From positions 220 through 64,219 of the forward strand of contig CAISZM010000027.1 of the NCBI GenBank assembly GCA_903889965.1: DNA of 64,000 nucleotides, in the 5' to 3' direction. The position numbers and the translations under genes were made by a program. Position 1 is the first letter of the stretch; each line of letters begins with the position of its first letter. Source of the DNA: an uncultured Elusimicrobia bacterium. Lineage in GTDB: Bacteria > Elusimicrobiota > Elusimicrobia > Elusimicrobiales > UBA9959. This document shows, piece by piece, positions 9,207 through 56,476 of this stretch. The notes under the pieces are model-generated. The model was not told where the DNA came from, did not search any database, and saw only the letters and a list, made by a program, of their open reading frames with translations.

Positions 9207-9266
9207 ATAAGGGCGCAAAGCGGTATATGCCGTCCCCCCGGACGCCGCGGGGACAGCTTAATTAAT

Positions 9267-14051: not shown

Positions 14052-14077
14052 CCGTTCAACGCCGGAGCCGCATGGAC

Positions 14078-14105
14078 AAGCCTGAGACCTTTCAGGCTTT
14101 TTTTG
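14078..14105 (+). terminator. Intrinsic terminator-like hairpin downstream of the GAF/HD-GYP gene
   Basis: AAGCCTGA (14078-14085) pairs with TCAGGCTT (14093-14100) across a 7-nt loop and runs into a T tract (through 14105). It begins 27 nt after the stop codon. Confidence 0.55.
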
Positions 14106-14156
14106 CGTCCGGACGCCTGAAAGACGGCGGAGGAACGCCCGTAAAAGCGCGCCCCG

Positions 14157-15194
14157 TTATATTTTTATTTTGGCGATAGCCACGCTCACGAGCAGGACTT
14201 CCACCGCCAGGAAGATGGCTATCAGCACGCCCCAGGCGAGCGGAACCTGCGTCATAAGCCAGGCGAACGAGGAAAGGACCAGCGTGGCCAGGGACGCGAG
14301 CCAGACCACGCGCCTCCTGGAAAAGCCTATCTTTTCAAACCTCAAGGCGAAGTGGTCCCGGCTGGCCAGGAACGGGGAATGGCCGCGCCGCAGGCGCATT
14401 ACCGACACAAAGATAGTGTCGTATATGGGCACGGTCAGTATAAAGAGCGGGGCATAAACGCCCAGCGGGTTGACTGCGGTGTACCTGGTGCCCATCGCCA
14501 CCACCGCCAGCACATAGCCGCAAAAAAGGCTCCCGGAGTCGCCCATGAATATCTTGTATTTTTTGGAGAAGTTGTAAGGCAGAAAACCCAGCGCCGCGCC
14601 CGCGAGGGCAGCGGACGCGAAATTCACGTATATGGCTTCCGACGGAAAAGCTATCAGCAGGAAACCGAAAGCGGCCAGCGCCACCTGTCCCGAGGAAAGG
14701 CCGTCCATGATGTCTATTATATTGAACGCGTTGGAAACCCCCACTATCCATAATACGCTGAGCGCGAAAGCCAGGTGGTCCGGGTGTATGAAATTTATCC
14801 TTATCCCGCAGAGCGCGGTAAAGAAAGCCACCGCGAACTGCACGGCGAACTTGGTCTTTACCCCGAGCCCGTGGGGCTTGCGCATGTCGTCTATAAAGCC
14901 CAGCGCGAATATCACGCTTCCGCCTGCCAGTATAAGGCGCAGGTCCCGCAGCGTGCCCGTGGGAAAAGAGGTGTAAAAGCGCATTATCAAAAGCGAGGCC
15001 GTAAAGGCCGCGAAGATGGCCGCCCCGCCAAGGAGGGGCGTCGGCGCCCTGTGCCTCTTAATGTCGGTGGGCCTGTCCATATGCCCGAACCTCAGGGCCA
15101 ATATTCTGAAAAGCGGCGTGAGGCACACCGAAATAAGCAGCGGCAGCGCGAAAGCCAGCAGGTAAAGCCTGAAATGCCCCAGGAGATTATTCAT
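14157..15194 (-). CDS. Polyprenyl-phosphate HexNAc-1-phosphate transferase (WecA/MraY glycosyltransferase family 4)
   Basis: The 345-aa polytopic ORF carries WecA/MraY motifs (..NAFNIIDIMDGL.., ..FMGDSGSLF..). It is the last gene of a co-directional glycan operon and overlaps the upstream gene by 8 nt. Confidence 0.85.
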   Translation of the reverse strand: MNNLLGHFRLYLLAFALPLLISVCLTPLFRILALRFGHMDRPTDIKRHRAPTPLLGGAAIFAAFTASLLIMRFYTSFPTGTLRDLRLILAGGSVIFALGFIDDMRKPHGLGVKTKFAVQFAVAFFTALCGIRINFIHPDHLAFALSVLWIVGVSNAFNIIDIMDGLSSGQVALAAFGFLLIAFPSEAIYVNFASAALAGAALGFLPYNFSKKYKIFMGDSGSLFCGYVLAVVAMGTRYTAVNPLGVYAPLFILTVPIYDTIFVSVMRLRRGHSPFLASRDHFALRFEKIGFSRRRVVWLASLATLVLSSFAWLMTQVPLAWGVLIAIFLAVEVLLVSVAIAKIKI

Positions 15195-16059
15195 ATTGTT
15201 CTATTACCGCGGCTATTTTGGCAAGGCTCTCCGCCGTCGGCGGCAGACCGCGGCCAAGTCTTTTTACCAGTTTCCCGGTTTTAAGGCCGGCCTTCAGCGG
15301 CCTCGGCGCGCTCTGGCCCAGTTCCGAAGTCGGGCGAGGTTCGATGAAGCCGGGGTCGAAGCCGAACACGGAGCAGGCCTTGAGCGCGAATTCATAGCGG
15401 TTCATCCAATCCGGGCCCACCACATTATATATCCCCGCCGCGCCGCCGCCGGCCAGATCCAGCACCGCCGCCGCCAATTCGGGCGCGTAGGTCGGGTTGG
15501 AGTACTGGTCCAGCGGAACGCGCATTTTGGCCCCCGACCTGTAATTGCTGATCAACTGCATTATAAAATTTTTGGAGGCCGGGTTGTGGCTGTAAACCAC
15601 GGTGGTGCGCACGGCCAGGGACCCCTTCAGGTTCAGAACGGCGCGTTCCCCCCCCAGCTTGGTCCGCCCGTAAACGCTCACCGGGCTCACCGGGTCCTCT
15701 TCGCTGTAGGGACCGGCGGCCCCGTCAAAAACGTATTCCGTGGAAAAATAGACCAATTTGGAGCCTCGCCTGAGGCATTCCTCAGCCACCAGCCCGGGGC
15801 CTTGCGCGTTGACGAGCGTAGCAAGCCCCGGGTCCCGCTCGCAATTATCCACGTGCGTCATAGCCGAACACAGGAAAACGGTGTCGGGCGCGCTTTTTTC
15901 AAAGCCCGCGGCTATGGACGCTTTATCCGCCAGGTCCATGTACAGGAAACCCTGGCCCCGGCGTGAAGTGCCGTACACTTCTATCTTGCGCCGCACGCAG
16001 AGCGATGCCAGCGTCCCGCCAACCTGTCCGGAAGCGCCGATAATAAGAACTCGCTTCAC
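15187..16059 (-). CDS. RmlD-like NAD(P)-dependent sugar reductase (dTDP-4-dehydrorhamnose reductase family)
   Basis: It has the Rossmann motif ILIIGASGQVGG, STEYVFDG, and the catalytic YGRTKLGGE (YxxxK). I prefer the GTG at 16059, which is preceded by GGGAGGG, over the ORF-track start at 16095. Confidence 0.75.
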   Translation of the reverse strand: MKRVLIIGASGQVGGTLASLCVRRKIEVYGTSRRGQGFLYMDLADKASIAAGFEKSAPDTVFLCSAMTHVDNCERDPGLATLVNAQGPGLVAEECLRRGSKLVYFSTEYVFDGAAGPYSEEDPVSPVSVYGRTKLGGERAVLNLKGSLAVRTTVVYSHNPASKNFIMQLISNYRSGAKMRVPLDQYSNPTYAPELAAAVLDLAGGGAAGIYNVVGPDWMNRYEFALKACSVFGFDPGFIEPRPTSELGQSAPRPLKAGLKTGKLVKRLGRGLPPTAESLAKIAAVIEQYE

Positions 16060-35697: not shown

Positions 35698-36656
35698 GAG
35701 CCCTCCGGCCTTTCCACCTTACCCCCGAGAAAGGAATCTGCTATCCTGGCCGTGAAAGGCCCGCCTTTTGCGGCTATCTTAAAATACACGGCCGCCTCGT
35801 CTTTACGCTTGAGCGCGTAAAGGGCCATCCCCTTTACCTCGGAGGCGAGAGGGTCGCCCTTGTCAGCCGCCAGCTCGGCGTCGGCCGCGGCCGCGGCGCG
35901 TTCCGGCAGGCCGCCCAAGAGCAGGTAGAGCGCCCGTTCAAGGCGCAAGCGCCTTGAAGGCTCAAGATCTATGGCCTTGTCCACAGCCTCAACGGCCTTG
36001 CTATAATCGCCCTTCCCGGCCATAACACGGGCCTCCACGAGCGACCAGGACGCGGAGCCCGGCTCCGCCTTAGCGCCCCGGCCGGCTATATAAAGCGCCT
36101 CGTTCCAGTCCCTTTTTTTAAGCATGCAAAAGGCGTATTCGCGCAGTGCCGCCGCGTCGGAAAAGTCCGTAAAGATAGCGGCCCGCGAATAATAGGTTTT
36201 AGCCCTGGAATAGAAGCCAAGCGCGGCGTAAGAACGCGCAAGGCCCAGGTTGGCCTCCATATCGTCGGACCTCGTGTTCAGTACCTTCAGGAAAAGCGGA
36301 ACTGCGTTCCCGAAAAAACCGGCCTTGTTGTAGATAAGCGCGAGGCGCAGGGCGAACAGGCTGTTGGCGGGGTAAAGACCCGAAGCCAGCTTGTAAAGGC
36401 TTATGGCTTTATCTGTCGCCCCGCCCGCCTCGTAGCAGCGACCCATGTAACCGTAGGCCTCCTCGCGCAGGTTGGCCGCGGGCTTTTCGATAAGGAAACC
36501 GGACGAGGTATCCATCACCGAAGCGCAGTCGCCGCGCGCGAAAGAGTCGCGCATGCCGTTCAGCATGGAAACCGCTTTCTTCTCCGAGGGCACGCCGAAA
36601 AGAAAGGCCCGGGCCGGGACGGCGCCGCAGAGCAGTATGGCGAGGACGAGCCTCAT
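35685..36656 (-). CDS. Exported TPR-repeat protein
   Basis: It has a signal-peptide-like N-terminus (MRLVLAILLCGAVPARA) and multiple TPR-like 34-residue repeats (..EAYGYMGRCYEAGGATDKAISLYKLA.., ..ANLGLARSYAALGFYSRAKTYYSRA..). Its start overlaps the patatin stop (ATGA at 36653-36656), and its 3' end overlaps dapF by 13 nt. Confidence 0.75.
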   Translation of the reverse strand: MRLVLAILLCGAVPARAFLFGVPSEKKAVSMLNGMRDSFARGDCASVMDTSSGFLIEKPAANLREEAYGYMGRCYEAGGATDKAISLYKLASGLYPANSLFALRLALIYNKAGFFGNAVPLFLKVLNTRSDDMEANLGLARSYAALGFYSRAKTYYSRAAIFTDFSDAAALREYAFCMLKKRDWNEALYIAGRGAKAEPGSASWSLVEARVMAGKGDYSKAVEAVDKAIDLEPSRRLRLERALYLLLGGLPERAAAAADAELAADKGDPLASEVKGMALYALKRKDEAAVYFKIAAKGGPFTARIADSFLGGKVERPEGSCEK

Positions 36657-37600
36657 AATTTCTCCACCAGCCGGGGCGCCGAGAAAACGAGGAAAGCCTC
36701 CTTGGCCGCGTTTATGCTCCTGGAAGCGCCGGTAAGGCCGGCCTCGCCAGCTTCGACGCAGCGGTTAAAATCCGCCACGGAGATGTCGCCGACCTCGGAC
36801 TTTACCACGAAATCCGCCTTTTTTTCCGACGCCAGCGCCAGGAGCGAACCTCGTATGTCGATCACATGCAATAGCGACATCAGCACATTGTCCGGCATCT
36901 GGCCGTAGTCGCTTTCCGTAACGCTGGCCAGCACCCAGTCGGCGCCGAGTCCGCGGGCGGCGTCCACGGGGATAAAGTCAACTACGCCCCCGTCGACCAG
37001 GTAGCGCTGCCGGTACTGCACCGGCGCGAAAATTCCGGGCAGGGTTACGCTGGCCCTGACGGCCATGGACAGGGATCCTTCGGTGAAGATTATTTTCTCG
37101 CCGCTGCGCATATCCATGGCCGTGCAGGCGAAGGGCTTTTTCAGGCCGCTGAAAGAGAGCCCGCCCAGGCTTCCGTCGATAAAGCGGTCTATATAGGTCG
37201 GAGTTATCAGCTTATCGGTAATAAGCAGGCGCAGCAGCTTTATGTTTTTAAAATCGCGGGAAACCTTCAGCTTGTCGGCGTTCCGGCCGAAGCCCCATAT
37301 CTCGTCCACCGATTGCCCGGAAGCGTAGAGCGAGCCTATAAGCGAGCCCATGGAAGTTCCGGAAACATAGTCCACCGGGAAACCGGCGTACTCAAGCGCC
37401 TCAAGCACGCCGGTGTGCGCGAAGGCCCGCGCGCCTCCCCCCGAAAGCGCCAGGCCCACGGTCGGGCGCGAACCGGGCCCGGCCGAAGCCGCGCGCGTCC
37501 AGAGGGTGTCACGCAGCACATCATCGTCCGTTTCCTGGGAGAAAGCCGGAGCCGCCGCCAGGACCAGCGCGAGAGTTGTTATCGTCAATAAAAAACGCAT
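36653..37600 (-). CDS. Exported patatin-like phospholipase
   Basis: It has a signal peptide (MRFLLTITTLALVLAAAPAFSQ), the oxyanion motif SGGGARAFAH, the nucleophile elbow GTSMGS and the catalytic Asp motif LVDGGV. Confidence 0.85.
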   Translation of the reverse strand: MRFLLTITTLALVLAAAPAFSQETDDDVLRDTLWTRAASAGPGSRPTVGLALSGGGARAFAHTGVLEALEYAGFPVDYVSGTSMGSLIGSLYASGQSVDEIWGFGRNADKLKVSRDFKNIKLLRLLITDKLITPTYIDRFIDGSLGGLSFSGLKKPFACTAMDMRSGEKIIFTEGSLSMAVRASVTLPGIFAPVQYRQRYLVDGGVVDFIPVDAARGLGADWVLASVTESDYGQMPDNVLMSLLHVIDIRGSLLALASEKKADFVVKSEVGDISVADFNRCVEAGEAGLTGASRSINAAKEAFLVFSAPRLVEKL

Positions 37601-37653: not shown

Positions 37654-38973
37654 CTAATTTACACCGCCGTTCGACCGCGGCCCCGGATCCTGATCCGCAA
37701 AATCCTGCCCGCGCGCCCATTCCAGGCGCGCGCGCGCAAGCAGCTGGTTGTACACGGCGTCGATAGATTTTTTTTCAAAGTCGCAGAGGGTGCAGAGGGA
37801 GCGCAGCGCCGTCATGGAAGGCCGCGAGGCCTTCAAGGCGGCCTCGTAATCCGCCTCCGCCCGCGCGGTTTCGGCGGCGAGTCTCCCGGCTTCCGCCTGC
37901 CAGAAAGCCGACTCTTTATGGGCTGAAATTATTTCAAAGCGCACCTCGTCCTGCAGCTCCACCCGCTTCAATTCGCCCTGGCGCTGCTGGGCCCTGCGCT
38001 GCTGGACCTGGGTCCACACGTCGTAGGAAAGCGGGAAGCGTATGGCCACCGAGGCCAGCCAGTTGTTGGCGCGCACCGAATTATCGGTCATGTCGGAGAT
38101 CCTGTAGGCGTTCATGTCATAACTTGCGCCCAGATAAATGGTGGGGTAGCGGCGCACCATGGCCAGATTTACGGATATATCGTCTATCTGCGCCTTGAAA
38201 AGCTCGCTTTTAAGCTCCGGGCGCGCCTCCATGGCCGTTACCAGGCTGCGCGTAACATCCTCATCAACGGGGCGCGGTTCAAAAACCCCTTCCACTTCCG
38301 CATGGTAACCCGGTTCGCGGTTGAGCGCCTTCAGGAGTTCGGTGCCGGCCGCGTCCATCCCGCTTTCCGCCTGCTCGAGCTTGTCGGACAGCCCTGAGAG
38401 CAGCATGGAAGCTTCCAGTTCCTCGAAAGCGTCCTTCCGCATTGACGTGTTAAGCGCGGTAGCCAGGGAGAGCCATTTAGCACAGGCCTCCTTAAGGCGG
38501 CGCTGGTAAAGGAGAGAATAAAATGCTTTTTTGGCGGCTAAAGCCGCGTCCGCCTTTACGGCTTCGTAATTGACCTGGGCCTGGGTATGGGAGGCCTTGG
38601 CAAGTTTGAGCATGTTCGTGTTCTTGCCGCCGGTATAAAGCGGCTGGAGGGCCTGCGCGCGAAGCGTGTAAAAAGCGTCCCTGATGGATGGGTCCAGGTA
38701 CCTCTCCCCCATTTCCGGCCCCAGCACCACGGGATACTCCAGATCGACCTGGCTCATCGTGCCGGAAAGAGTGAATTGAGGGAACGCCAGAAAACGCGCC
38801 TCGCGCACGCGCTGCCTGGCTATGTTGATATCCTGTTCGGCGGCCAGGACCGCCGGACTGTTCCTGACGGCCAGCGAGACAACTTCGTCGAGCGTCAGGG
38901 CTTCCTTATTCTCCTGGGCCGCGGCCGGAACCGGGGCCAGGGCCAGGGCTGCGGCTAACGCTATAAATAGCAT
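37654..38973 (-). CDS. TolC-family outer membrane channel protein
   Basis: The 439-aa ORF has a signal peptide (MLFIALAAALALAPVPAAAQ). A duplicated OEP-type repeat structure begins with LTLDEVVSLAVRNSP.., and coiled-coil-rich segments follow. Confidence 0.85.
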   Translation of the reverse strand: MLFIALAAALALAPVPAAAQENKEALTLDEVVSLAVRNSPAVLAAEQDINIARQRVREARFLAFPQFTLSGTMSQVDLEYPVVLGPEMGERYLDPSIRDAFYTLRAQALQPLYTGGKNTNMLKLAKASHTQAQVNYEAVKADAALAAKKAFYSLLYQRRLKEACAKWLSLATALNTSMRKDAFEELEASMLLSGLSDKLEQAESGMDAAGTELLKALNREPGYHAEVEGVFEPRPVDEDVTRSLVTAMEARPELKSELFKAQIDDISVNLAMVRRYPTIYLGASYDMNAYRISDMTDNSVRANNWLASVAIRFPLSYDVWTQVQQRRAQQRQGELKRVELQDEVRFEIISAHKESAFWQAEAGRLAAETARAEADYEAALKASRPSMTALRSLCTLCDFEKKSIDAVYNQLLARARLEWARGQDFADQDPGPRSNGGVN

Positions 38974-48007: not shown

Positions 48008-49096
48008 TTAAATGGCCTTGGCCCGCCGCAGGCCCCAAAGCGACAGCAGCCCGAAGAAAAGCGCCGGCGCAAGCCCGGCCGCTAGAGGCGGGAGCAGCTC
48101 GGCGCTGCCGGCCTCCTGCGCCATTATCATAACCGCCCAGAAAAAGAAACCGAATCCCAGCGCTATCCCGAAACTGAAAAACTTGTTGTTCCTGCGCACG
48201 AGAAGGACCATGGCCGCGCCTATCAGGGCCATGGCCGGATTGGCCAGCGGCGCCGACAATTTTACCCAGAAAAGAGTGCGCTCCACGGCGGAGGGAGCCC
48301 CCACTTCATTAAGGCGGCGGAGTCGCCTCAGGACCTCCAGTGAGGAAACCCCCTCCGGCACGAGTTTTTCCAGCACCAGGTTTTCCGGCGGCACCGAGAT
48401 GGCGGACTGGGACACGGCAAGGCGCGTGGTTAAAGGCTTAAGGTCCGAATCGTAATTTATCAGGACGCAGTCGTGCAGCACCCATCGCCTGACATCCTTC
48501 TGCCACAGCGCGGAAGCCGCGTTTATTTCCCTGAAAAGCCGGTCCTCCCTGTAAGTACTGATCGTCACATGCTCCATGACGCCCCGGCGCCCGTCGAAAA
48601 GATGGGCCGTAACGATCACGTCCCTCCCCGCGGAAAAAGCCACGTCTTCCCTGACCAGGCGCTGCCAGTCCTCTTTTCCGCGCAGCTTGCCCTGGAACAG
48701 GTACTCCGAGCGCATGAAATATTCAGGCGCCACGGTCTCCTGCAGCACGAACTGAACGGCCCCCGCCGCCACGGCGCACACAAGCAGCGGCTTGATCATG
48801 TCGAAAGGACGCCACCCGCCGGCTAACCCCGCCTTCCATTCTCCGTTAGACAGCATCCCGCCGAGCGCGAAAAGCACGGCCATCATGGTGGCTATCGGGG
48901 TCATCTTCACCATGAAATAAGGGGCCTGGTAGATCACATAGCGAAAGAAAACCCCGGCGCCGGCCCCGCTCTTCAGGAAGGGGCTGAGGTTGTCGAAAAG
49001 GCTGCCGAAGAGCAGCATCAGGCAGAACACGGCGAGGCCGAAACCGAAGGGGCCCCAGAAGCTGCGCGCGATGTACCTGTAAAATATCTTGTTCAT
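48008..49096 (-). CDS. lptG: LPS export ABC transporter permease, LptF/LptG (YjgP/YjgQ) family; second gene of the pair
   Basis: The 362-aa ORF has the N-terminus YRYIARSFWGPFGFGL typical of the family and six TM segments flanking a periplasmic beta-jellyroll-sized loop. The lptG label is assigned from gene order only. Confidence 0.75.
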   Translation of the reverse strand: MNKIFYRYIARSFWGPFGFGLAVFCLMLLFGSLFDNLSPFLKSGAGAGVFFRYVIYQAPYFMVKMTPIATMMAVLFALGGMLSNGEWKAGLAGGWRPFDMIKPLLVCAVAAGAVQFVLQETVAPEYFMRSEYLFQGKLRGKEDWQRLVREDVAFSAGRDVIVTAHLFDGRRGVMEHVTISTYREDRLFREINAASALWQKDVRRWVLHDCVLINYDSDLKPLTTRLAVSQSAISVPPENLVLEKLVPEGVSSLEVLRRLRRLNEVGAPSAVERTLFWVKLSAPLANPAMALIGAAMVLLVRRNNKFFSFGIALGFGFFFWAVMIMAQEAGSAELLPPLAAGLAPALFFGLLSLWGLRRAKAI

Positions 49097-49129: not shown

Positions 49130-50248
49130 TTACTTCCCGTACAGCTTGCGCGACCACAGCCACAGCCCGGCCGCGCCGGTGAGCAGCGCCGGCGCGAACA
49201 CGGCCCAGGGGAAAAGCGCTTCGTATTTGCGGGCCAGCACCATCCCCGTTATGGTGAGCCCGTAGTAAAAGAATATTATCACCAGCGTGATGGCAAAACC
49301 CGCGGAGCGGCCGCGCTTGTCCAGCGCTATACCCAGCGGCGCCCCGACGAGGAAGAAGACCAGCGGCGCGAGCGCGAGAGCGAAGCGTGACGCCACTTCT
49401 ATGCGGTACCTGGCCGCGTTCTGCGGATCCTTTACCCCGGCCCTCAGCCTTTCTATGAGCCCTAAAGTGGGGATCTCCCGCTGGCTAAGTTCGCGGCCCT
49501 GCGCGCTTACGGACAAAAAAGGCAGCAGCGTGGCGTAAGACGAGAATTTTCCGGACAATATCTTCTCCGGGTACTTATAGTCCGTCTGGCTGAACTGGCC
49601 GCTGGAAAGCTCCATTTCCAGCCCCTGCTCCTGCTTCACATGGTAACTGCCGGAGGCGGCGTTTATCTTGGTGAGAAAAGCCGGATCCGCGCCCTTATTT
49701 ATGCGGCGCAGCAGTTTAACGCCGCGCATTGTGCCGTTTATGCTGTTGACCTCGGCCGCGTAAAGGACCCAGTCCGAGACCTGCTGGAAAGTGCGCGGCT
49801 TCAGGTCTATTTTCGTGACGCGGTTCAGCATGGTCATGGTATAGTCGGTTGAGCGCTTTACGGACCGCGGGCCTATCCAGTTATTCACAGCCACGAGCAG
49901 CAGCGAGGCCGCCACGGCGGCGAGGGCGACGTAAGAAAGTATTTCGTAAAAAGAGTACCCGCCGGCGCGCAGCGCCACTATCTCGCCGTCCTGCGACATC
50001 TGCCCGAGGCTTAAAAGCATCGCCAGCAGAAAAGCCAGCGGCAGGGAGGTCGCGACTATGTTGGGCAGCAGGTAGACGATGCTTTTCAGCAGGAAATAGA
50101 ATGAAAAACCGGCCAGCACCCCCTGATTTACCACCTGCACGAAGTCCAGGGTTATGAGCAGCGCGACAAAAACAAAAAGGGCCAGCGCGAGGAACCGCGC
50201 GAAAACGCGCAGTATGTAGAGGCGGGCAACGGAACTAGGCACACGCAT
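49130..50248 (-). CDS. lptF: LPS export ABC transporter permease, LptF/LptG (YjgP/YjgQ) family; first gene of the pair
   Basis: The 372-aa ORF has the N-terminus LYILRVFARFLALALFVF and the same architecture as the downstream paralog. The lptF label is assigned from gene order only. Confidence 0.75.
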   Translation of the reverse strand: MRVPSSVARLYILRVFARFLALALFVFVALLITLDFVQVVNQGVLAGFSFYFLLKSIVYLLPNIVATSLPLAFLLAMLLSLGQMSQDGEIVALRAGGYSFYEILSYVALAAVAASLLLVAVNNWIGPRSVKRSTDYTMTMLNRVTKIDLKPRTFQQVSDWVLYAAEVNSINGTMRGVKLLRRINKGADPAFLTKINAASGSYHVKQEQGLEMELSSGQFSQTDYKYPEKILSGKFSSYATLLPFLSVSAQGRELSQREIPTLGLIERLRAGVKDPQNAARYRIEVASRFALALAPLVFFLVGAPLGIALDKRGRSAGFAITLVIIFFYYGLTITGMVLARKYEALFPWAVFAPALLTGAAGLWLWSRKLYGK

Positions 50249-50278
50249 TTATTTATTCTATTATATATCGACGGTGCC

Positions 50279-53200
50279 GTGGAACGCTTCTCGCTCTCTG
50301 CGCGGGCGGTTTCCGTTCGCCCGGAAAGAGGATTTCAGAGAACAGTGAAAGCGACCACAACGATACTGCCGCTCCTGGCCCTGGCCATATTCGCCGCCCC
50401 CTCCCGCGCGGCCGATTTCGCCGTTCCGAAACCGGACGGCGGACGTTTCCTGCTGCTTGACAGGCAGGAAGGCGGGAACATACTCGAGGAACCCGAAATA
50501 TCCACCGAAGCCGATAGCGGCGACCTGGAAAAGATATCCGGGGAGCTTCCTTTCTCCTATAGCGAGGATTCGTGGAATTCCGCGCGCGAAGCCGTGGAAA
50601 CGGGCCGTTTCGGGAGCGATGAACTTGCCGCGCCGGCGCCGGCGGAAGCGTCCGCGGAGGAACCGCTGGAGCCCGAGCCGCAGGTTGAGTTCACCGAGTC
50701 GGGAACCAGCCTTTCCGTGACCGGCCGCAAGATAATAACGGTCAACTACAGCGGCAAAAAATACCTGAGCAGCCAGACCACCCTGACGCGCGCGCGCTCG
50801 CTGAGCCTGTTCGAGATAACGCAGCAGATGCAGGTGCGCATGCAGGGCAAGGTGGGACAGAAGATCAGCGTCAACGTCGACTACGACGACACCAAGCAGG
50901 ACAAGCAGGACATCTCGGTAGTCTACCAGGGAGACCCCAACGAGGTGGTGCAGAACGTCTCCTTCGGCGACATTGACCTTTCGCTTCCGGCCACCGAGTT
51001 CGTCTCCTACAACAAGCAGTTGTTCGGCATCCGGACGGACCTGAAGACCAAGAGCCTCAAATTCACCTTCGTAGGGTCCCGCACAAAAGGCCAGAGCAAG
51101 ACCAAGCAGTTCACCGGGAACACCCAGTTCCAGGCCGTTGACCTGCTCGACACCAGCTACCTGCGCCGCAAATACTACGACGTGACCTTCGGCTGCAATA
51201 CGGTTTCCTGCATGCGCCTGCCCATAAAGTCCGGAACGGAGCGCATCTATATAGACCAGCAGACGCAGGCCCAGGTGGACGGGATCTCAGTACTGGCCCT
51301 TACGGGCAAGGACATGGCGGTGCAGTCCACCGGCTACACGGGCCGCTTCCAGCTTATGAGCCCCGGTATAGATTACGTGATGGACTACTCCAAGGGCCTG
51401 GTGACTTTCAACCGCAACCTGAACCCCCAGGACGTCGTCATGATCGACTTCCAGAACGCCGACGGCACCCGCCTGTCCCAGAACGGGTCTCCCCTGTCGA
51501 CTACGGCCGACGCCCTTCCCGGGGAAATACTCCCGGCCATAATAAAGCCGCCCAGCGACATCGCGCTGTCCTCTGTTACGGCCATAGCCGACCTGCAGGT
51601 CTCGCACAAGCGTGAACTCAAGACCTACTACGCCATAGGCCAGACCAATATAGTGCGCGACAACGGCAACGGCAATTTTACGCTTAAGGTGCAGGACCTC
51701 AACCGCAATTCCGTCAGCGTTGCCGGGTACAACCCCTCGGAGGGCAACCCGGCTATAAAATACCCCGACACGGTAGAGGTGGATTTCGAACAGGGAATAA
51801 TACACCTGAAAAACCCGTTCATGTCGGATTCGTCCCCCGGCACTATGGACGAACAGGTCTACTCCGCCGCGCCGGTGTCGAAACGCATAATCCGGGTCGA
51901 GTATTCCTACCGCTTCAAGACCTTCCTGCTGGAGCCGAGCATAGTGCTGCAGTCGGAGTCGGTCCGCGTTGACGGGAAGAAGCTGGGCCGCAACGAGGAT
52001 TATTTCATAGACTACGACTCCGGCTTCATCACCTTCTACTACCCCGATCGCATCGGGCAGGACTCGAAGATAGACATAACCTACGAAGTTTCCCAGTTCG
52101 GCGGCATGGGCAACCAGTCGCTGGTCGGAGGCCGGATCTCCTACGATTTCGGCACCCACTTCTCGCTCGGTTCCACGGTACTCTACCAGGGAGGCGTAAA
52201 GACCAACTCCGTCCCCAACGTGACCGACCTGACCAACAGCATGCTTGTTTACGAGGGCGACGCGCAGCTGAAGGGCCTGAACCTCCTGGGTCTGCACAGC
52301 ACCCTCGGCGCGGAGGCCGCCCAGAGCCGGCTTAACCCGAACCTGAACAGCTTCGCGCTGATAGACAACATGGAGGGCGTGAAGCAGGAAGATTCCCCGT
52401 CGATGGACAAGAACTACTGGTTCATCGCCGCCAACCCCGGGGTCCCGGCAGACCCGCTGGCGCTGGACTGGTACAACGAGAACATGAAATCCATAGACAT
52501 AAACCCCGCGGCCACCTCGGACGGCACGCAGCAGGTGCTGAGCATAAATTATGATTTCCGCGTTTCCTCCGAAGTTTCAATAGTCTACCCCCTTTCGCTC
52601 ACCGGGCTGGACTTCTCGCAGAAGAACATGCTGGAACTGGTGGTGCACGGGGAGAATTCGCCCTCGGACGCCGGTCCGCAGATCAATATACACCTCGGGC
52701 AGATAAGCGAGGACGCGGACGGCGCGGGCGGGCAGAACTTCGTCTGCGCCTCCGGGTTGGCCCTGACCGGCTCTCCGAAAAGCGAGGACCTGAACTGCGA
52801 CTCACAGGTTTCAAGCTCGGAAGATATCGGCTGGCTGTACGCCCCGGCGGCCTCCGCGCACACGAAACGCTACGGAGCCGCTAACGGCCGCCTGGACTCG
52901 GAAGACCTCAACAAGAACGGCCGCCTGGATTACGGCGATTTCACGGGCGGCGATTTCGGCTACGTGAACGGCACAGAATTCAAGGATACGGACCCGTCCG
53001 AGGCCCCGAAGAACTATGTCGATTTCAACGGCTGGCACACGCTTTATATGCCCCTGGTGATAACTTCCACCGACACTTTCAAATGGAACGCGGTAAAGCA
53101 GGTGCGCCTTTCGCTCAGGCAGAGACCCGGCGGCGCCGACCACGGCGTGATAAAATTCGCCCGCATCTCCGCGGTGGGAAATACCTGGACCGTTATGACC

Positions 53201-55738
53201 AGCACCGCCGCCGGCCTGATGCAGGCGGTGGCCGTGAACAACCTGGACAACGTATACACCCCTATCTACGAGGCAGGAGGGGACGCCACCGCGGTATTCA
53301 ACGACCTTTACGGCTCGGTTTCGGAACTGCGGCAGAAGAGCAACTCCAACAACATAACGGAGCAGTCTTTGTCGATGATATACGACAACATCTGCTCCAC
53401 TTCCACGGTCTACGTTTACCGCAAGTTCACGGTCGCCGTAGACATCTCCCAGCACGCCGAACTCCGCTTTCTGGTGCGCGGCCCCAACAACGATGCGGCG
53501 GTCACCGACCCCGACGCCCCTGGCTCCAGCTTCTACATAAAGGCCGGTGACGCTAACAATTATTTCAAGGCTTCCATCCCGCTTAACTTTACCGGGTGGA
53601 AACTGGTAAAGATCAGCCAGCAGGACCTGACCGGTGACAAGGTGCCGGACGTCTGGGCCCCGCTCACCCCGGGAGTGGAGATCTCCTCCCGCGGCACCCC
53701 AAGCCTGCAGCAGGTGCCCCAGTTCATAGTCGGGGTGGAGTCCAACGACGGCAACTGCCACTCCGGCACCGCGTATTTCAACGAGCTGCACCTGTCCGGG
53801 CCTATTTCGCGCACGGGCAACGCGCGCAAGGTGGAGGGCTCTTTCGAGATCCCCGGCTGGCTCAATTTCGGCGGCAAGCACAGGTTCATTGACCGCAGCT
53901 TCCAGACGCCGGTGACCGCCATAACCAACCAGGACAACGAGCAGCAGACCGGCTATCTCAACATAACCCGCCTGCCCTTCTTCCCGGTCAACGTCACGGC
54001 GTCGCACCAGATAACCGTAACCCCCAACGCCCTGGTTACAGGGGCAAACAACCTGGTCAACTCGCTGCAGCAGGGACGCGTCAAAAAATTCGACGGAACG
54101 GCCGCCGGTTCGCTCAGCCTCAGCTACCTGCCGAAACTCGGGCTTAACTACACCAAGGGGATAACCGACTACGACCTGCTCAGCCGCAGGGACGACAATG
54201 ACCTTTACGCCGCCAGCCTCTCTTACACGGTTCCGGGCACGCTGGCGATAACCCCGCGCACGATAAACCTCGATTACTCCCTGGGCCGCAGCAAGGTAGG
54301 TTACGACTCCAGCCGCCTGATACTCCTGGGAGGGCTTTTCAATACGGACGACCGCACCGACATATACAGCGGGAAGTTCTCCTTCGTCCCCTGGAACGGT
54401 TCTTCGTTCAACCCCAGCTACAGCCTGCAGACGGCCCGCGAGGAGCGTTCCCCCCTCTCGGACCCGCTGGCGGTCGAGCGCTATCCAAAATCCATGCAGC
54501 AGACCGCGGACTTCAACTCCAATTTCCTTCTCACGCGCTGGCTGAACCCGTCGGTTAATTACTCCGTGAGCACCATAGAGAACAATAATCTCAACATCAC
54601 CACGGTAACCATCGCCCAATCCTCCCAGACATTCACCGCGGGGCAGATAAAGAGCGTTAACCGCAGCGCCCAGGGCGGGGTAAGCCTTACCCTGAGCATG
54701 AACAGCTTTCTGCCCGCGAACCGCCTCCTGCGCTCCATGGTGTTCTCTTCCAACTACCAGATACAGGACGGCGACTCCTGGGAGAATGTGGAAAAAGGCT
54801 TCGACACCAAAGCGCGCCTCTGGCTGAGGGACTCGTTCAAGCCCTCCAGCCCCTTCGCCCAGAGGACCTCCATAACGCTGCGCGACACGGTCAGCTCCTC
54901 GCAGCGGTGGCAGCCTTTCGAAGGCTACGGCTTCAAGGGACCGGCGTCGTCGCTGAACACGCTGTCCCTGACCAATAATTTCACGAACTCGGTACAGCGT
55001 TCCGAGGTGACCGGCACCGTCTCGCGGAGCGTAAACCGGACCTTCCCCGATATGATATTTTCAATATCGCAGCTGGAGGCGCTGACGCGCACAAGGCGCT
55101 GGGCACAGAACGCCACGCTTAACCTGAAGTATTCGCGCAACACCAACGAAGCGCAGCGTGTTTCGCTGGATGAATCAAGCGCCTACGGCATGGACCTGCG
55201 CTTCAAGCTGCTGAACTGCGTGGACGCGGCCACCAGCTACAATACGCGCCTGGCCGAAAAGCGGGACCTGCGCGTAAACCAGCTGACGCAGAGCTCGCGC
55301 CACGACGACGCCACCCTGCAGGGAACCTTCGACTACAAGAAGTTCCGCTTCACGCCCAAAACCGACTTCGTTTCCGACAAAGCGGAAGGCACGCTGGGAG
55401 TGGTGACGCAAAACACGCGTACGATAACGCCAAGCCTCCTGATAAAGTCGGACTTCCAGCTGCCCAAGGGACTCAAGCTGCCGTTCACGAACAGGACGAT
55501 CATATTCACCAACCGCATCGTGTGGACCACCACGCTGAGCTACGCCATCAAGACCTCCCCCATCACCATTGCCGACAACAACAGGCTTTTCTCGCTCAAC
55601 TCGAACGCCGACTACGAGGCATCCAAGAACCTGCGGCTGTCCTTCAACCTAGGGCTGCAGCGGCTATGGAACAAATACCTCAAGCAGGAAGAGTATGTTT
55701 CCTACCAGGCCGGCAGCACCCTGACTTTCCAGTTCTAG
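50279..55738 (+). CDS. Giant (1819 aa) outer-membrane beta-barrel protein, SprA/Sov-like (type IX secretion translocon family) by recalled motif resemblance
   Basis: It has a signal-peptide-like segment KATTTILPLLALAIFAAPSRA|ADF; an alternative GTG start at 50345 would put it at the N-terminus. An acidic linker follows. The C-terminal beta-signal is ...YQAGSTLTFQF. The blocks GKVGQKISVNVDYDD, VVYQGDPNEVVQNVSFGDIDLSLP, NKQLFGIRTDLK, LGQISEDADG and VIKFARISAVGNTW resemble conserved SprA blocks as I remember them. That this is a real CDS is near certain; the family call is tentative. Confidence 0.6.
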   Translation: MERFSLSARAVSVRPERGFQRTVKATTTILPLLALAIFAAPSRAADFAVPKPDGGRFLLLDRQEGGNILEEPEISTEADSGDLEKISGELPFSYSEDSWNSAREAVETGRFGSDELAAPAPAEASAEEPLEPEPQVEFTESGTSLSVTGRKIITVNYSGKKYLSSQTTLTRARSLSLFEITQQMQVRMQGKVGQKISVNVDYDDTKQDKQDISVVYQGDPNEVVQNVSFGDIDLSLPATEFVSYNKQLFGIRTDLKTKSLKFTFVGSRTKGQSKTKQFTGNTQFQAVDLLDTSYLRRKYYDVTFGCNTVSCMRLPIKSGTERIYIDQQTQAQVDGISVLALTGKDMAVQSTGYTGRFQLMSPGIDYVMDYSKGLVTFNRNLNPQDVVMIDFQNADGTRLSQNGSPLSTTADALPGEILPAIIKPPSDIALSSVTAIADLQVSHKRELKTYYAIGQTNIVRDNGNGNFTLKVQDLNRNSVSVAGYNPSEGNPAIKYPDTVEVDFEQGIIHLKNPFMSDSSPGTMDEQVYSAAPVSKRIIRVEYSYRFKTFLLEPSIVLQSESVRVDGKKLGRNEDYFIDYDSGFITFYYPDRIGQDSKIDITYEVSQFGGMGNQSLVGGRISYDFGTHFSLGSTVLYQGGVKTNSVPNVTDLTNSMLVYEGDAQLKGLNLLGLHSTLGAEAAQSRLNPNLNSFALIDNMEGVKQEDSPSMDKNYWFIAANPGVPADPLALDWYNENMKSIDINPAATSDGTQQVLSINYDFRVSSEVSIVYPLSLTGLDFSQKNMLELVVHGENSPSDAGPQINIHLGQISEDADGAGGQNFVCASGLALTGSPKSEDLNCDSQVSSSEDIGWLYAPAASAHTKRYGAANGRLDSEDLNKNGRLDYGDFTGGDFGYVNGTEFKDTDPSEAPKNYVDFNGWHTLYMPLVITSTDTFKWNAVKQVRLSLRQRPGGADHGVIKFARISAVGNTWTVMTSTAAGLMQAVAVNNLDNVYTPIYEAGGDATAVFNDLYGSVSELRQKSNSNNITEQSLSMIYDNICSTSTVYVYRKFTVAVDISQHAELRFLVRGPNNDAAVTDPDAPGSSFYIKAGDANNYFKASIPLNFTGWKLVKISQQDLTGDKVPDVWAPLTPGVEISSRGTPSLQQVPQFIVGVESNDGNCHSGTAYFNELHLSGPISRTGNARKVEGSFEIPGWLNFGGKHRFIDRSFQTPVTAITNQDNEQQTGYLNITRLPFFPVNVTASHQITVTPNALVTGANNLVNSLQQGRVKKFDGTAAGSLSLSYLPKLGLNYTKGITDYDLLSRRDDNDLYAASLSYTVPGTLAITPRTINLDYSLGRSKVGYDSSRLILLGGLFNTDDRTDIYSGKFSFVPWNGSSFNPSYSLQTAREERSPLSDPLAVERYPKSMQQTADFNSNFLLTRWLNPSVNYSVSTIENNNLNITTVTIAQSSQTFTAGQIKSVNRSAQGGVSLTLSMNSFLPANRLLRSMVFSSNYQIQDGDSWENVEKGFDTKARLWLRDSFKPSSPFAQRTSITLRDTVSSSQRWQPFEGYGFKGPASSLNTLSLTNNFTNSVQRSEVTGTVSRSVNRTFPDMIFSISQLEALTRTRRWAQNATLNLKYSRNTNEAQRVSLDESSAYGMDLRFKLLNCVDAATSYNTRLAEKRDLRVNQLTQSSRHDDATLQGTFDYKKFRFTPKTDFVSDKAEGTLGVVTQNTRTITPSLLIKSDFQLPKGLKLPFTNRTIIFTNRIVWTTTLSYAIKTSPITIADNNRLFSLNSNADYEASKNLRLSFNLGLQRLWNKYLKQEEYVSYQAGSTLTFQF

Positions 55739-55747: not shown

Positions 55748-56476
55748 ATGGCGATAAATTTCCGAAAGGGCGGAAGATACCTTCTGAACGTCCTGCTCCC
55801 GAGGACCTGCGCCCACTGCGCGGCGGACCTGCACTATCTCGAGGAACGGCCGCTCTGCCCGGGCTGCGCCGGGGCCCTGGAGCCGCTGCCGGCGCTTCAC
55901 TGCTCTACCTGCGGACTGCCTCTTTCATCCGGGGGACAGTCCTGCTACGACTGCAGGGGAGCCGCTCCCCGCAGCCTTTCGCTCGCAAGGTCGGCGTTCG
56001 TGTTCAACCCGCAGCTCCGTTCGCTTGTACACGCCTTCAAATACCTGGGAAGGGAAGACCTCGGCGGCTTCCTGGCCGGCCGGATGGCCGAGGCGCTTCC
56101 CCGCTTCCCGGAACTCGCGCCCTACAATTTTACGGCCGCCGTGCCGCTTCACCCCGCGAAGCTGCGCGAAAGGGGTTTTAACCAGGCCGAAGTTCTCGCC
56201 AAGCGGACCGCCGCACTGGCCAACCTGTTCCACCTGGAAGGAGCGGCCCGGCGCCTGAAAAACACGAAAAGCCAGACTTCCCTGTCAAAAACGGACAGGC
56301 GCAGGAATATGACCGGGGTCTTCGCGGTCGAAAGGCCGGAGCTGGTGCGGGGGAGGCGGATACTCCTGGTGGACGACGTTGCCACTACCCTGGCTACGCT
56401 GGAATCACTGGCGGCGGAATTTAAAAAAGCCGGCGCCGTCTCTGTGGCGGCGTACACGCTGGCCCGGGAACCATAG
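55748..56476 (+). CDS. comF: ComF family protein (double zinc-ribbon plus phosphoribosyltransferase domain)
   Basis: It has N-terminal Cys pairs (CAHCAADL..CPGC and CSTCGLP..CYDC), a PRTase fold and the PRPP-loop ILLVDDVATTLATL. It starts 9 nt after the giant ORF. Confidence 0.8.
   Translation: MAINFRKGGRYLLNVLLPRTCAHCAADLHYLEERPLCPGCAGALEPLPALHCSTCGLPLSSGGQSCYDCRGAAPRSLSLARSAFVFNPQLRSLVHAFKYLGREDLGGFLAGRMAEALPRFPELAPYNFTAAVPLHPAKLRERGFNQAEVLAKRTAALANLFHLEGAARRLKNTKSQTSLSKTDRRRNMTGVFAVERPELVRGRRILLVDDVATTLATLESLAAEFKKAGAVSVAAYTLAREP

What the first reader, a model, noticed from the sequence alone, without database searches (positions are those of the whole stretch)
50279..55738. Orphan, shortened SprA/Sov-like giant outer-membrane barrel back-to-back with lptFG
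Seen in the sequence: one uninterrupted 1819-codon ORF. It has a signal-peptide-like segment (KATTTILPLLALAIFAAPSRA|ADF) and then an acidic Pro/Glu/Ala linker. Long stretches are rich in N, S, T and Y with alternating polarity, and the C-terminus ends ...YQAGSTLTFQF, a classic OMP beta-signal with terminal Phe. Recalled but not computed: several blocks look like the conserved blocks of Flavobacterium SprA and Porphyromonas Sov, the T9SS translocon. These are GKVGQKISVNVDYDD..ISVVYQGDPNEVVQNVSFGDIDLSLP..NKQLFGIRTDLK, LGQISEDADG, and WNAVKQVRLSL..VIKFARISAVGNTW. Three things are unusual. The protein is roughly a quarter shorter than the characterised ~2400-aa SprA proteins. None of gldK/L/M/N, porV, porU, sprE, sprT or a recognisable T9SS C-terminal-domain cargo occurs in the 64 kb. 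The gene is divergent from lptF by only 30-96 bp and is followed 9 bp later by comF. It is therefore either a minimal or orphan T9SS-type translocon in an unexpected setting, or a new giant-barrel family that only superficially resembles SprA.
Basis: partly seen in the sequence, partly recalled or inferred. Interest (0 to 1): 0.78.

Follow-up and report, generated by a model that had tools for sequence, protein, structure and literature searches.

The report
Compact SprA-type secretion pore in Elusimicrobia
This 1,800-residue gene encodes a real but very divergent and compact relative of SprA/Sov, the giant outer-membrane pore of the type IX secretion system. It sits in a phylum (Elusimicrobiota) where the papers I found do not describe that system, and some relatives carry PorV-like carrier genes and cargo-like genes beside it.

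Summary
There is one uninterrupted ORF at 50279-55738 (+). Its real start is probably GTG 50345 (1797 aa). It has a signal peptide, an acidic/Pro-rich linker and a terminal-Phe beta-signal. It lies divergent from lptF/lptG and 9 bp upstream of comF.

The SprA assignment is supported. TIGR04189 matches at E 1.2e-37 but scores 128.8 bits, below the curated cutoff of 200, and Pfam SprA_N does not match. A family profile hits only F. johnsoniae SprA in the PDB, in four colinear blocks. AlphaFold models of both halves (pLDDT 85.5 and 77.5) hit only SprA strongly (Foldseek E 6e-41 and 1.6e-48). About 34-38 long strands are predicted, so the shortening appears to come from smaller inserts, not a smaller barrel.

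The gene is widespread in Elusimicrobiota (at least 198 species genomes) and is always named 'hypothetical protein'. Relatives occur in Aerophobetes, Desantisbacteria and Firestonebacteria.

'Orphan' is true of this window but not of the phylum. In 7 related loci a PorV/PorQ- or TraF_2-type barrel gene lies within 10 kb. Two loci also carry large secreted proteins with sub-threshold T9SS-CTD-like tails.

Whether a GldKLMN motor and ring or PorU exist could not be tested. Verdict: a new variant of a known kind.

The parts
50236..50264 (+). Promoter-like site (TAGGCA-17-TATTAT) in the AT-rich lptF / SprA-like intergenic region
   Evidence: Consensus scan. This is a pattern match only. It favours the downstream GTG 50345 as the start.
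50279..55738 (+). SprA/Sov-family giant outer-membrane beta-barrel gene (ORF as reported; the likely true start is 50345, giving 1797 aa)
   Evidence: P0001 is 1797 aa. TIGR04189 E 1.2e-37, 128.8 bits. PDB profile hit to SprA only. Foldseek to SprA at E 6e-41 and 1.6e-48.
50345..50410 (+). Sec signal peptide, (M)KATTTILPLLALAIFAAPSRA, with predicted cleavage before ADF
   Evidence: Read directly from the sequence. The start agrees with the database gene call.
50411..50680 (+). Disordered acidic Pro/Glu/Ala-rich linker (residues about 45-134), probably periplasmic
   Evidence: pLDDT below 50 over most of this stretch in the N-terminal model. It is variable among orthologues.
50693..51178 (+). 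Most conserved block (residues 139-300), equivalent to the SprA N-terminal region. It includes the first long barrel strands (143-161, 174-192).
   Evidence: Best stretch against TIGR04189 is 139-300 to model positions 93-254. Profile block 148-275 aligns to SprA 160-288. It has the densest invariant columns.
51179..52108 (+). Inserted beta-rich domain(s), residues about 300-610
   Evidence: DSSP of the N-terminal model. The second colinear SprA block (profile 523-602 to SprA 701-780) starts near the end of this stretch and runs on into the next part (about residues 565-644).
52118..52336 (+). Four long strands (residues 614-624, 628-638, 654-669, 672-686), probably barrel hairpins
   Evidence: The same strands are predicted in both overlapping models.
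52352..53743 (+). Inserted beta-sandwich domains (residues about 692-1155), which I read as the counterpart of the SprA cap. They hold a conserved Cys pair (C823, C840) and Asp/Asn/Gly-rich loops (DLNKNGRLD, EDADG).
   Evidence: Models, with pLDDT mostly 80-93. Colinear SprA blocks at profile 881-1062 to SprA 1213-1403 and 1088-1162 to 1467-1542. Invariant C823, C840, D812, D814, D873 and D876. A calcium-binding role for the loops is my inference.
53759..55735 (+). C-terminal run of 28 long antiparallel strands (residues 1161-1817), the bulk of the barrel wall
   Evidence: DSSP of the C-terminal model, with pLDDT mostly 85-96. Foldseek TM-score 0.58 (query-normalised) to SprA.
55703..55735 (+). 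C-terminal beta-signal YQAGSTLTFQF
   Evidence: Read from the sequence. Y1809, G1812, Q1818 and F1819 are invariant.
49130..50248 (-). lptF, divergently transcribed. This neighbour is conserved.
   Evidence: Pfam LptF_LptG E 1.7e-63. An lptF/lptG-cluster ORF is the called upstream neighbour in 34 of 60 related loci. That is a lower bound, because antisense ORFs were picked in some GC-rich loci.
48008..49096 (-). lptG
   Evidence: Pfam LptF_LptG E 1.1e-62.
55748..56476 (+). ComF-type protein (double zinc ribbon plus phosphoribosyltransferase), 9 bp downstream and probably co-transcribed
   Evidence: Pfam DZR_2 and Pribosyltran. It is the immediate downstream neighbour on the same strand in 36 of 67 related loci. 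It is still linked in the distant clade.

Best explanation
The gene encodes the Elusimicrobiota orthologue of SprA/Sov, the giant outer-membrane beta-barrel that serves as the protein-conducting channel of type IX secretion.

Shown here: it is a true homologue of SprA, and the predicted fold is the SprA fold.

Inferred mechanism: the precursor crosses the inner membrane by Sec (signal peptide) and is inserted into the outer membrane by BAM (terminal-Phe beta-signal). It forms a barrel of roughly 36 strands. Its extracellular side is covered by inserted beta-sandwich domains (a cap).

It then lets folded periplasmic proteins that carry a C-terminal Ig-like sorting domain (FlgD_ig / Por_Secre_tail-like) leave the cell. 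Small PorV/PorQ-family barrels would act as carriers or anchors, as PorV and PorP do in Bacteroidota.

Compared with the 2403-aa F. johnsoniae SprA it is compact, apparently because the inserts and loops are smaller.

In this genome the partners are not within the 64 kb. The gene sits in a housekeeping envelope cluster (lptG-lptF <> sprA-like > comF). How transport is powered, and whether a GldLM/GldKN-type motor and ring exist, is unknown.
For: Homology to SprA:
- TIGR04189 (Sov/SprA) matches at E 1.2e-37 in 4 stretches.
- A profile of 24 orthologues finds only F. johnsoniae SprA in the PDB (E 1.8e-16). The four blocks are colinear and span SprA 160-1542.

Fold:
- The AlphaFold2 model of residues 620-1819 (pLDDT 85.5) gives Foldseek E 6e-41 and TMq 0.58 to SprA chains. 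The next best target, LptD, scores only 6.5e-6 with TMq 0.17.
- The model of residues 45-1244 (pLDDT 77.5) gives E 1.6e-48 to SprA. The next best is 1e-4.
- Counting long strands in the DSSP output gives 28 + 4 + about 2-6. That is compatible with SprA's 36 strands (PMC10994853).

Continuum with accepted SprA:
- The profile finds 2188 cluster representatives (729 at E <= 1e-30). Most of the 150 best are 1550-2490 aa long, apart from fragments.
- Two of the longer relatives pass the TIGR04189 cutoff: P0344 at 211 bits and P0332 at 265 bits.

Partners in relatives:
- L052/L084 has, all on one strand, SprA-like > YjbQ > 178 aa > a gene NCBI names 'PorV/PorQ family protein' > 202 aa > a 1621-aa beta-propeller protein > comF. 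The beta-propeller protein has a TIGR04183 Por_Secre_tail match at 22.3 bits against a cutoff of 23.
- L039 has the same lptGF-sprA-comF synteny as the window. It carries a 1120-aa VWA/Ig protein whose FlgD_ig tail also matches the C-terminal end of the PorU model. Beside it lie a PorV/PorQ-like barrel (NF033709, E 1.3e-19) and an OmpA-family protein.
- PorV-like or TraF_2-type barrels lie within 10 kb of the SprA-like gene in 7 loci, in different arrangements.
- The profile of these barrels hits only F. johnsoniae PorV in the PDB (E 3.9e-11).
Against: - The TIGR04189 score (128.8) is below NCBI's equivalog cutoff (200), and Pfam SprA_N does not match this protein.
- No PorV-like gene, CTD-bearing protein or GldK/L/M/N gene is in the 64-kb window. 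None appears in the flanks of its closest relatives either, apart from L039.
- The CTD-like matches in relatives are all sub-threshold. PorV/PorQ-family (FadL-like, UPF0164) barrels are not exclusive to T9SS.
- The most conserved neighbours are lptFG, comF and polysaccharide genes, not secretion genes.
- The existence of a power source (GldLM/PorLM) in this phylum was not tested.
Confidence: 0.62

Rival explanations
1. It has the SprA fold but a different job: a housekeeping outer-membrane biogenesis or export channel for LPS, O-antigen, another surface polysaccharide or lipid, working with the neighbouring Lpt and glycan genes.
For: - The divergent lptF-lptG pairing is conserved across much of the phylum.
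- In the distant clade the gene is flanked by Wzy_C, GT4, Bac_transf, DegT and UDP-sugar dehydrogenase/epimerase genes.
- The window itself is rich in LPS and glycan genes.
- The gene is widespread in the phylum, with one hit per assembly among the loci shown, like a housekeeping gene.
- LptD chains account for most of the second-tier Foldseek hits.
Against: - The LptD similarity is generic to big barrels (E about 1e-5, TMq 0.15-0.17, against 6e-41 and 0.58 for SprA).
- No known SprA homologue moves glycolipid.
- Synteny with lptFG is lost in many lineages (L049-L065).
- In Bacteroidota, T9SS cargo is itself anchored to LPS (PMC7468200, listed), so glycan neighbours also fit the secretion model.
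- PorV-like and CTD-like neighbours are not predicted by this idea.
Confidence: 0.2
2. It is an uptake channel for large substrates. One version is DNA uptake linked to the co-transcribed comF gene; another is polymer import.
For: comF follows 9 bp downstream and stays linked even in the 44-47% identity clade. Amylase-family genes follow in many loci.
Against: - ComF-type proteins act on the cytoplasmic side. Known outer-membrane DNA-uptake channels are secretins, not SprA-like barrels (my general knowledge).
- The amylase-family neighbours are on the opposite strand.
- There is no TonB box or plug-domain signature in the Pfam or NCBIfam results.
Confidence: 0.07
3. It is a new giant-barrel family that only superficially resembles SprA, or a decaying relic with no function.
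For: The score is below the curated TIGR04189 cutoff, there is no Pfam SprA_N hit, and sequence identity to SprA in structural alignments is only 11-14%.
Against: - There are four colinear sequence blocks.
- Both model halves hit SprA and nothing else comparably.
- Intermediate relatives pass the SprA cutoff.
- The ORF is intact, with hundreds of invariant columns across 43-76% identical orthologues in at least 198 genomes. That excludes decay.
Confidence: 0.03

Closest known systems
SprA (Flavobacterium johnsoniae Fjoh_1653; PDB 6H3I, 6H3J, 8GL6, 8GL8) and Sov (Porphyromonas gingivalis), the T9SS outer-membrane translocon (TIGR04189)
   Same: - It has a signal peptide and a giant beta-barrel with a predicted strand count compatible with 36.
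- The order of conserved blocks is colinear: an N-terminal SprA_N-like block, mid-barrel hairpins, inserted beta-sandwich (cap) domains and a long C-terminal strand run.
- SprA is the only strong structural match for both halves.
- PorV-family genes are associated with it in some genomes.
   Different: - It is about 600 residues shorter. By the offsets of the aligned blocks, the missing residues are spread over four places: about 170, 150, 40 and 250 aa.
- It scores 128.8 bits against the cutoff of 200, with no Pfam SprA_N hit, and is 11-14% identical in structural alignment.
- The host phylum lies outside Bacteroidota and the FCB group.
- Its conserved neighbours are lptFG and comF.
- Partners such as GldKLMN, SprE/PorW, PPI, Plug and PorU have not been seen.
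PorV / PorQ / PorP-SprF carrier and anchor barrels with their CTD cargo (T9SS type A and type B modules; PMC9143113)
   Same: - Relatives of this locus encode PorV/PorQ-family barrels directly beside large secreted proteins with C-terminal Ig-like tails.
- One such module also has an OmpA-family protein, which resembles the cargo / PorP-like / PorE-like arrangement.
- The only PDB match of the barrel profile is PorV.
   Different: - None of these genes is in this window.
- The scores are sub-threshold for the T9SS-specific models (NF033709 at 71 against 90; TIGR04183 at 22.3 against 23).
- Four of the seven neighbouring barrels are of the TraF_2 (PF13729) type, which NCBI names 'conjugal transfer protein TraF'.
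LptD (26-strand LPS translocon)
   Same: It is a very large outer-membrane barrel, and this gene lies next to Lpt genes. LptD chains make up most of the second-tier Foldseek hits.
   Different: The TM-score is 0.15-0.17 and E about 1e-5 to 1e-4, against 0.58 and 6e-41 for SprA. There is no LptD or OstA family hit.

Membership tests
SprA/Sov (TIGR04189, T9SS translocon) | Whole-protein score above the curated NCBIfam cutoff (200 bits) | tested here: not met
   128.8 bits, E 1.2e-37, 4 stretches. Relatives from other phyla score 135-265 bits, and two pass the cutoff.
SprA/Sov (TIGR04189, T9SS translocon) | Pfam SprA_N domain (PF14349) | tested here: not met
   No hit at E <= 1 for this protein. 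PF14349 is precomputed for several orthologues, including P0094, P0141, P0151, P0158 and P0234, so this protein lies just beyond that model's reach.
SprA/Sov (TIGR04189, T9SS translocon) | Giant (36-strand) beta-barrel fold with inserted extracellular cap domains | tested here: met
   Two overlapping AlphaFold2 models (pLDDT 85.5 and 77.5) hit only SprA chains strongly (E 6e-41 with TMq 0.58; E 1.6e-48). The strand count from DSSP is about 34-38, which is approximate because I had no coordinates and no full-length model.
SprA/Sov (TIGR04189, T9SS translocon) | Colinear sequence homology along the protein | tested here: met
   Four blocks in the same order, covering profile positions 148-1162 and SprA 160-1542. 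Total E 1.8e-16, and SprA is the only PDB hit.
SprA/Sov (TIGR04189, T9SS translocon) | Lateral opening of the barrel to the membrane surface, closed by PorV or Plug | not testable with these tools
Type IX secretion system (as a system) | PorV-family carrier present and linked | tested here: inconclusive
   Absent from the 64-kb window. Present within 10 kb of the orthologue in 7 related loci. One is named 'PorV/PorQ family protein' by NCBI. The profile hits only PorV in the PDB.
Type IX secretion system (as a system) | Cargo with a C-terminal sorting domain (TIGR04183 type A or TIGR04131 type B) | tested here: inconclusive
   None was found in the window. In relatives the matches are: TIGR04183 at 22.3 bits against a cutoff of 23 on a 1621-aa protein (L052); a tail matching FlgD_ig (25.8 bits, Pfam cutoff 27) and the C-terminal end of the PorU model on a 1120-aa protein (L039).
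Type IX secretion system (as a system) | GldK/L/M/N (PorK/L/M/N) motor and ring, PorU/PorZ attachment complex, SprE/PorW | not testable with these tools
   Only the window and 10-kb flanks of relatives could be read, so no whole-genome scan of an Elusimicrobiota genome was possible. None is present among the window ORFs scanned with Pfam.
Type IX secretion system (as a system) | Host in Bacteroidota or the FCB group, as the literature states | tested here: not met
   All named close homologues are from Elusimicrobiota. Its lineage is Bacteria; Pseudomonadati; Elusimicrobiota. The papers retrieved describe T9SS as confined to Bacteroidota or the FCB group (PMC7906972, PMC12398890, PMC10994853).
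LptD/OstA | LptD or OstA family match, or an LptD-like fold | tested here: not met
   No Pfam or NCBIfam LptD hit. Foldseek TMq 0.15-0.17.

The most novel reading that the evidence does not exclude
Elusimicrobiota, and also Firestonebacteria, Desantisbacteria and Aerophobetes, may run a minimal, ancestral-type 'T9SS-like' export pathway. It would consist of a compact SprA-family pore, PorV/PorQ-type carrier barrels encoded next to their cargo, and FlgD_ig-type C-terminal sorting domains, without the Bacteroidota GldKLMN motor and ring. If so, the translocon module exists outside the FCB group and may be older than it, and it can be powered or gated in another way.
Probability: 0.3. Interest if true: 0.8.

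Novelty: new variant of a known kind. Interest (0 to 1): 0.6.

Why it matters
Every T9SS paper retrieved here describes the system as confined to Bacteroidota or the FCB group. SprA is described there as its 36-strand outer-membrane channel.

A compact SprA orthologue that is widespread in Elusimicrobiota and uniformly labelled 'hypothetical protein' would widen that picture. This is more so because it occasionally sits in one gene cluster with a PorV-family barrel and a CTD-like cargo.

If confirmed, it would extend the phylogenetic range of the translocon. It would give a smaller (about 1,750-residue mature) natural variant for structural and mechanistic work. It would also turn two open questions into something testable by genome scans of already sequenced isolates: which parts of the T9SS are the ancient core, and whether the pore can work without the GldLM/GldKN machinery.

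It also offers a better annotation for several hundred 'hypothetical' giant proteins in candidate phyla.

Tried and rejected
- Single-sequence phmmer against the PDB found nothing. A profile was needed.
- Pfam on the protein gave only noise: TgMIC1 and FlgD_tudor at E above 0.2.
I rebuilt it from accepted sequences.
- Four literature searches combining Elusimicrobia/Elusimicrobiota or other candidate phyla with T9SS, SprA, PorV or Gld terms found no paper on the subject. The two papers that hold both 'Elusimicrobia' and 'T9SS' did not help. In PMC12204202 the two topics are unrelated. The other (PMC8542988) I judged irrelevant from its title and abstract and did not open.
- My greedy ORF calling in GC-rich loci sometimes picked antisense ORFs (clusters c13, c40, c288). 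The synteny counts are therefore lower bounds.
- An HMM built from the two CTD-like tails found no further copies in the roughly 1.5 Mb of loci.
- The Pfam scan of 149 C-terminal fragments lists only the 25 commonest of 100 matched families. A single Por_Secre_tail hit could have been hidden, so I followed up with motif searches and NCBIfam.
- The conserved neighbours w340, c7 and c8 are not secretion genes. They are a weak Cache-like protein, a PMT_2 glycosyltransferase and a tRNA methyltransferase.
- I rejected the LptD-replacement idea as the main explanation because of the Foldseek scores.
- I rejected pseudogene or chance ORF because of the conservation.
Full report
**Observation.** The window holds one uninterrupted ORF at 50279-55738 on the + strand, 1819 codons from a GTG. 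The same protein in the public collection is 1797 aa (P0001). That corresponds to a start at GTG 50345, which gives a canonical signal peptide, (M)KATTTILPLLALAIFAAPSRA|ADF. A purine-rich ribosome-binding site lies upstream of it, and a promoter-like site lies at 50236-50264 in the AT-rich spacer.

The acidic Pro/Glu/Ala stretch that follows is disordered in the model. The C-terminus ...YQAGSTLTFQF is invariant at Y, G, Q and F in 24 orthologues. The neighbours are as stated: lptF (49130-50248, -) and lptG (48008-49096, -) are divergent, and a ComF-type gene begins 9 bp after the stop.

**Organism and distribution.** All named close homologues (43-76% identity, 1640-1990 aa) come from Elusimicrobiota metagenome-assembled genomes. 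Every one that carries a name is called 'hypothetical protein'. A scan of one genome per GTDB species found 198 encoding stretches. The best 80 all come from different assemblies; most are labelled Elusimicrobia or Elusimicrobiota, a few only 'bacterium', and one is labelled Endomicrobium trichonymphae. This is a lower bound, because the scan relied on two peptide patterns. Elusimicrobiota is not part of the FCB group.

**Is it SprA?**
- Pfam gives nothing, not even SprA_N.
- NCBIfam TIGR04189 (Sov/SprA) matches at E 1.2e-37 but at 128.8 bits, below the curated 200-bit cutoff.
- Single-sequence search of the PDB finds nothing.
- A profile of 24 orthologues finds exactly one protein, F. johnsoniae SprA, at E 1.8e-16. 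The four blocks are in the same order in both proteins: profile 148-275 to SprA 160-288, 523-602 to 701-780, 881-1062 to 1213-1403, and 1088-1162 to 1467-1542.
- The protein exceeds the 1200-aa modelling limit, so I modelled two overlapping halves with 53-sequence alignments.
- Residues 620-1819 gave mean pLDDT 85.5. Foldseek E-values to the four SprA chains are 6e-41 to 1.5e-33, with TM-score 0.57-0.59. The next target, LptD, is at 6.5e-6 with TM-score 0.17.
- Residues 45-1244 gave pLDDT 77.5. Foldseek E-values to SprA are 1.6e-48 to 1e-33, and the next target is at 1e-4.

The protein is therefore a genuine SprA-family member by descent and by fold. The alternative that it only superficially resembles SprA is rejected.

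**Anatomy.**
- The DSSP strings of the two models agree where they overlap.
- After the linker come two long strands (143-161 and 174-192) and several shorter ones within the most conserved block (139-300).
- A beta-rich insert follows (about 300-610).
- Then come four long strands (614-686).
- A second set of inserted beta-sandwich domains follows (about 692-1155). It holds an invariant Cys pair and Asp/Asn/Gly-rich loops.
- An unbroken run of 28 long strands then reaches the C-terminus (1161-1817).

That adds up to roughly 34-38 transmembrane strands, compatible with the 36 of SprA (PMC10994853). The offsets between aligned blocks place the missing ~600 residues in four places, about 170, 150, 40 and 250 aa. 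The protein therefore appears short because its inserts and loops are small, not because the barrel is truncated. The exact strand count and the lateral opening could not be checked, because I had no access to coordinates.

**A wider family.** A profile of residues 130-1250 was run against 1.84 billion cluster representatives. It found 2188 proteins at E <= 1e-3 and 729 at <= 1e-30. Most of the best 150 are 1550-2490 aa long and cover the whole profile. The named members are from:
- Elusimicrobiota
- Candidatus Aerophobetes (1567 aa)
- Candidatus Desantisbacteria (2056 aa)
- Candidatus Firestonebacteria (1636-1723 aa)
- unclassified 'bacterium' entries

Nearly all that carry a name are 'hypothetical protein'; one JGI member is called 'LysM repeat protein'. 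Their TIGR04189 scores run from 135 to 265 bits, and two pass the cutoff. There is thus a continuum between this compact form and proteins that NCBI's model would accept as SprA.

**Context.**
- Pfam scans of about 50 ORFs show no T9SS component in the window. What is there: a TRAP transporter; many LPS and polysaccharide genes (GT2, GT4, GT9, DegT, ArnT-like, a WbpB/D/E-like trio); a TolC-like protein; DapA/DapF; PFK; DnaE; Tkt; LptF/G; ComF; an S9 peptidase; and amylase-family genes.
- Among 80 related loci, the arrangement lptG-lptF <> sprA-like > comF is the rule in the clade that holds this window. It recurs in part in the 44-47% identity clade and is lost elsewhere.
- In the distant clade the gene is often flanked by O-antigen or polysaccharide genes.

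**Not an orphan at phylum level.**
- A screen of C-terminal fragments of neighbouring proteins and a motif search led to two loci.
- In L052/L084 the genes on one strand are SprA-like (1843 aa), YjbQ, a 178-aa protein, a 301-aa barrel that NCBI itself names 'PorV/PorQ family protein', a 202-aa protein, a 1621-aa beta-propeller protein, and comF. The tail of the beta-propeller protein matches TIGR04183 at 22.3 bits against a cutoff of 23.
- L039 shares the window's synteny. A few kb downstream of its sprA-like gene lies an operon of three genes. The first is a 1120-aa VWA/Ig protein with a tail matching FlgD_ig (25.8 bits, just under Pfam's 27-bit cutoff) that also matches the C-terminal end of the PorU model. 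The second is a 427-aa PorV/PorQ-like barrel (NF033709, E 1.3e-19, 71 bits against a cutoff of 90). The third is an OmpA-family protein.
- A local HMM finds such barrels within 10 kb of the SprA-like gene in 7 loci, in different arrangements. Three are short PorV/PorQ-type and four are the longer TraF_2 (PF13729) type.
- The profile of these barrels hits only F. johnsoniae PorV in the PDB (E 3.9e-11).
- The module of PorV-like barrel, ~200-aa protein and large beta-propeller protein also occurs away from sprA-like. PorV-like genes also sit beside giant Kelch/Ig proteins on contigs of unnamed origin. This recalls the cargo-plus-PorP-like pairs of Bacteroidota (PMC9143113).
- None of these genes is in the window. 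Its downstream end carries the same PMT_2-like gene as its closest relatives.

**Interpretation.** The best-supported reading is a compact SprA-type outer-membrane protein translocon (confidence about 0.6 for the function, above 0.9 for family and fold).

Homology, fold, signal peptide, beta-signal, conservation, and recurrent linkage to PorV-family barrels and CTD-like cargo in relatives are shown here. That cargo passes through this pore, that the inserts form a cap with a lateral gate, and how transport is powered are all inferred.

The main rival is a housekeeping envelope or glycolipid function, suggested by the lptFG and glycan neighbourhood (about 0.2). It is weakened by the SprA-specific fold, and by the fact that T9SS cargo is itself LPS-anchored in Bacteroidota. 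An uptake or competence channel is unlikely (about 0.07).

**Limits.**
- I could not scan any whole Elusimicrobiota genome for GldKLMN, PorU/Z or SprE. That is the decisive missing test.
- The CTD-like hits are sub-threshold.
- PorV/PorQ-family barrels are not unique to T9SS.
- The paper library covers only open-access papers and bioRxiv. It held no paper linking Elusimicrobia to T9SS, but absence there is not proof of novelty.

**Verdict.** The finding is real. The SprA assignment is right, and the 'orphan' label is right for this window only. I rate it a new variant of a known kind, with moderately high interest.

Noticed in passing
L052:10001-23625 (= L084:3367-17153), JACRDQ010000008.1: One-strand cluster: SprA-like > YjbQ > 178 aa > PorV/PorQ family protein (P0512) > 202 aa with a FlgD-Ig-like sequence > 1621-aa beta-propeller protein with a near-threshold Por_Secre_tail > comF. 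This is the clearest translocon-carrier-cargo linkage I found in the phylum.
   Followed up: partly
L039:18674-24500 (-), JBAYJD010000034.1: Operon of three genes: a 1120-aa VWA/Big_7 protein with a FlgD_ig / PorU-CTD-like tail, a 427-aa PorV/PorQ-like barrel that itself has a C-terminal FlgD-Ig-like domain, and a 394-aa OmpA-family protein. It resembles the type-B cargo / PorP / PorE modules of Bacteroidota.
   Followed up: partly
L041:1188-2834, L047:3773-5092, L063:12214-13653, L073:4733-6028: Barrels of about 420-550 aa of Pfam TraF_2 (PF13729) type, which NCBI names 'conjugal transfer protein TraF'. They are very common in Elusimicrobia (about 100 clusters among the 120 hits listed). They share the N-terminal G-x-R-A-x-G-M-G-G-A...W-N-P-A-G-L motif with PorV. 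There is no conjugation context, so the name looks like a misnomer.
   Followed up: partly
window:22590-25253 (-): A WbpE-like DegT aminotransferase, a WbpD-like hexapeptide acetyltransferase and a WbpB-like GFO/IDH/MocA oxidoreductase lie in a row. This is the enzyme set of the Wbp pathway, which in P. gingivalis makes the linking sugar of T9SS cargo (PMC7468200). Here it is 25 kb from the SprA-like gene and may simply serve O-antigen synthesis.
   Followed up: no
P0386 (2486 aa, 'bacterium', MEW5767629.1), residues 168-239: A SprA-family relative with an N-terminal region matching the T9SS PorG model (E 2.3e-11, 43.9 bits, cutoff 130). It may be a fusion of a small outer-membrane barrel to the translocon, or a generic OMP match.
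   Followed up: no
L085:1-10891 and L088:2703-10888 (JGI sample 3300045502): PorV-like 295-aa barrels encoded immediately after giant Kelch/Ig-repeat proteins (4954 aa and 2433 aa) on contigs of unnamed origin. These are cargo-carrier pairs of the same style.
   Followed up: no
window:5711-6640 (-) and 36653-37600 (-): Two patatin-like phospholipase genes. The second has a signal peptide and lies next to a TPR protein and a TolC-like outer-membrane factor (37654-38973).
   Followed up: no
window:62452-63474 (-) and its orthologues (cluster 'w340', 31 loci): A conserved membrane-anchored protein of about 310-340 aa with only a weak Cache-domain match (E 0.002). It travels with the sprA-like/comF/amylase block in the Elusimicrobiales-like clade. 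Its function is unknown.
   Followed up: partly
L027:about 8500-15217: The longest ORF for the SprA-like gene in this locus is 2230 aa, about 440 residues longer at the N-terminus than its relatives. This is either an ORF-calling artefact in GC-rich DNA or a real N-terminal extension.
   Followed up: no
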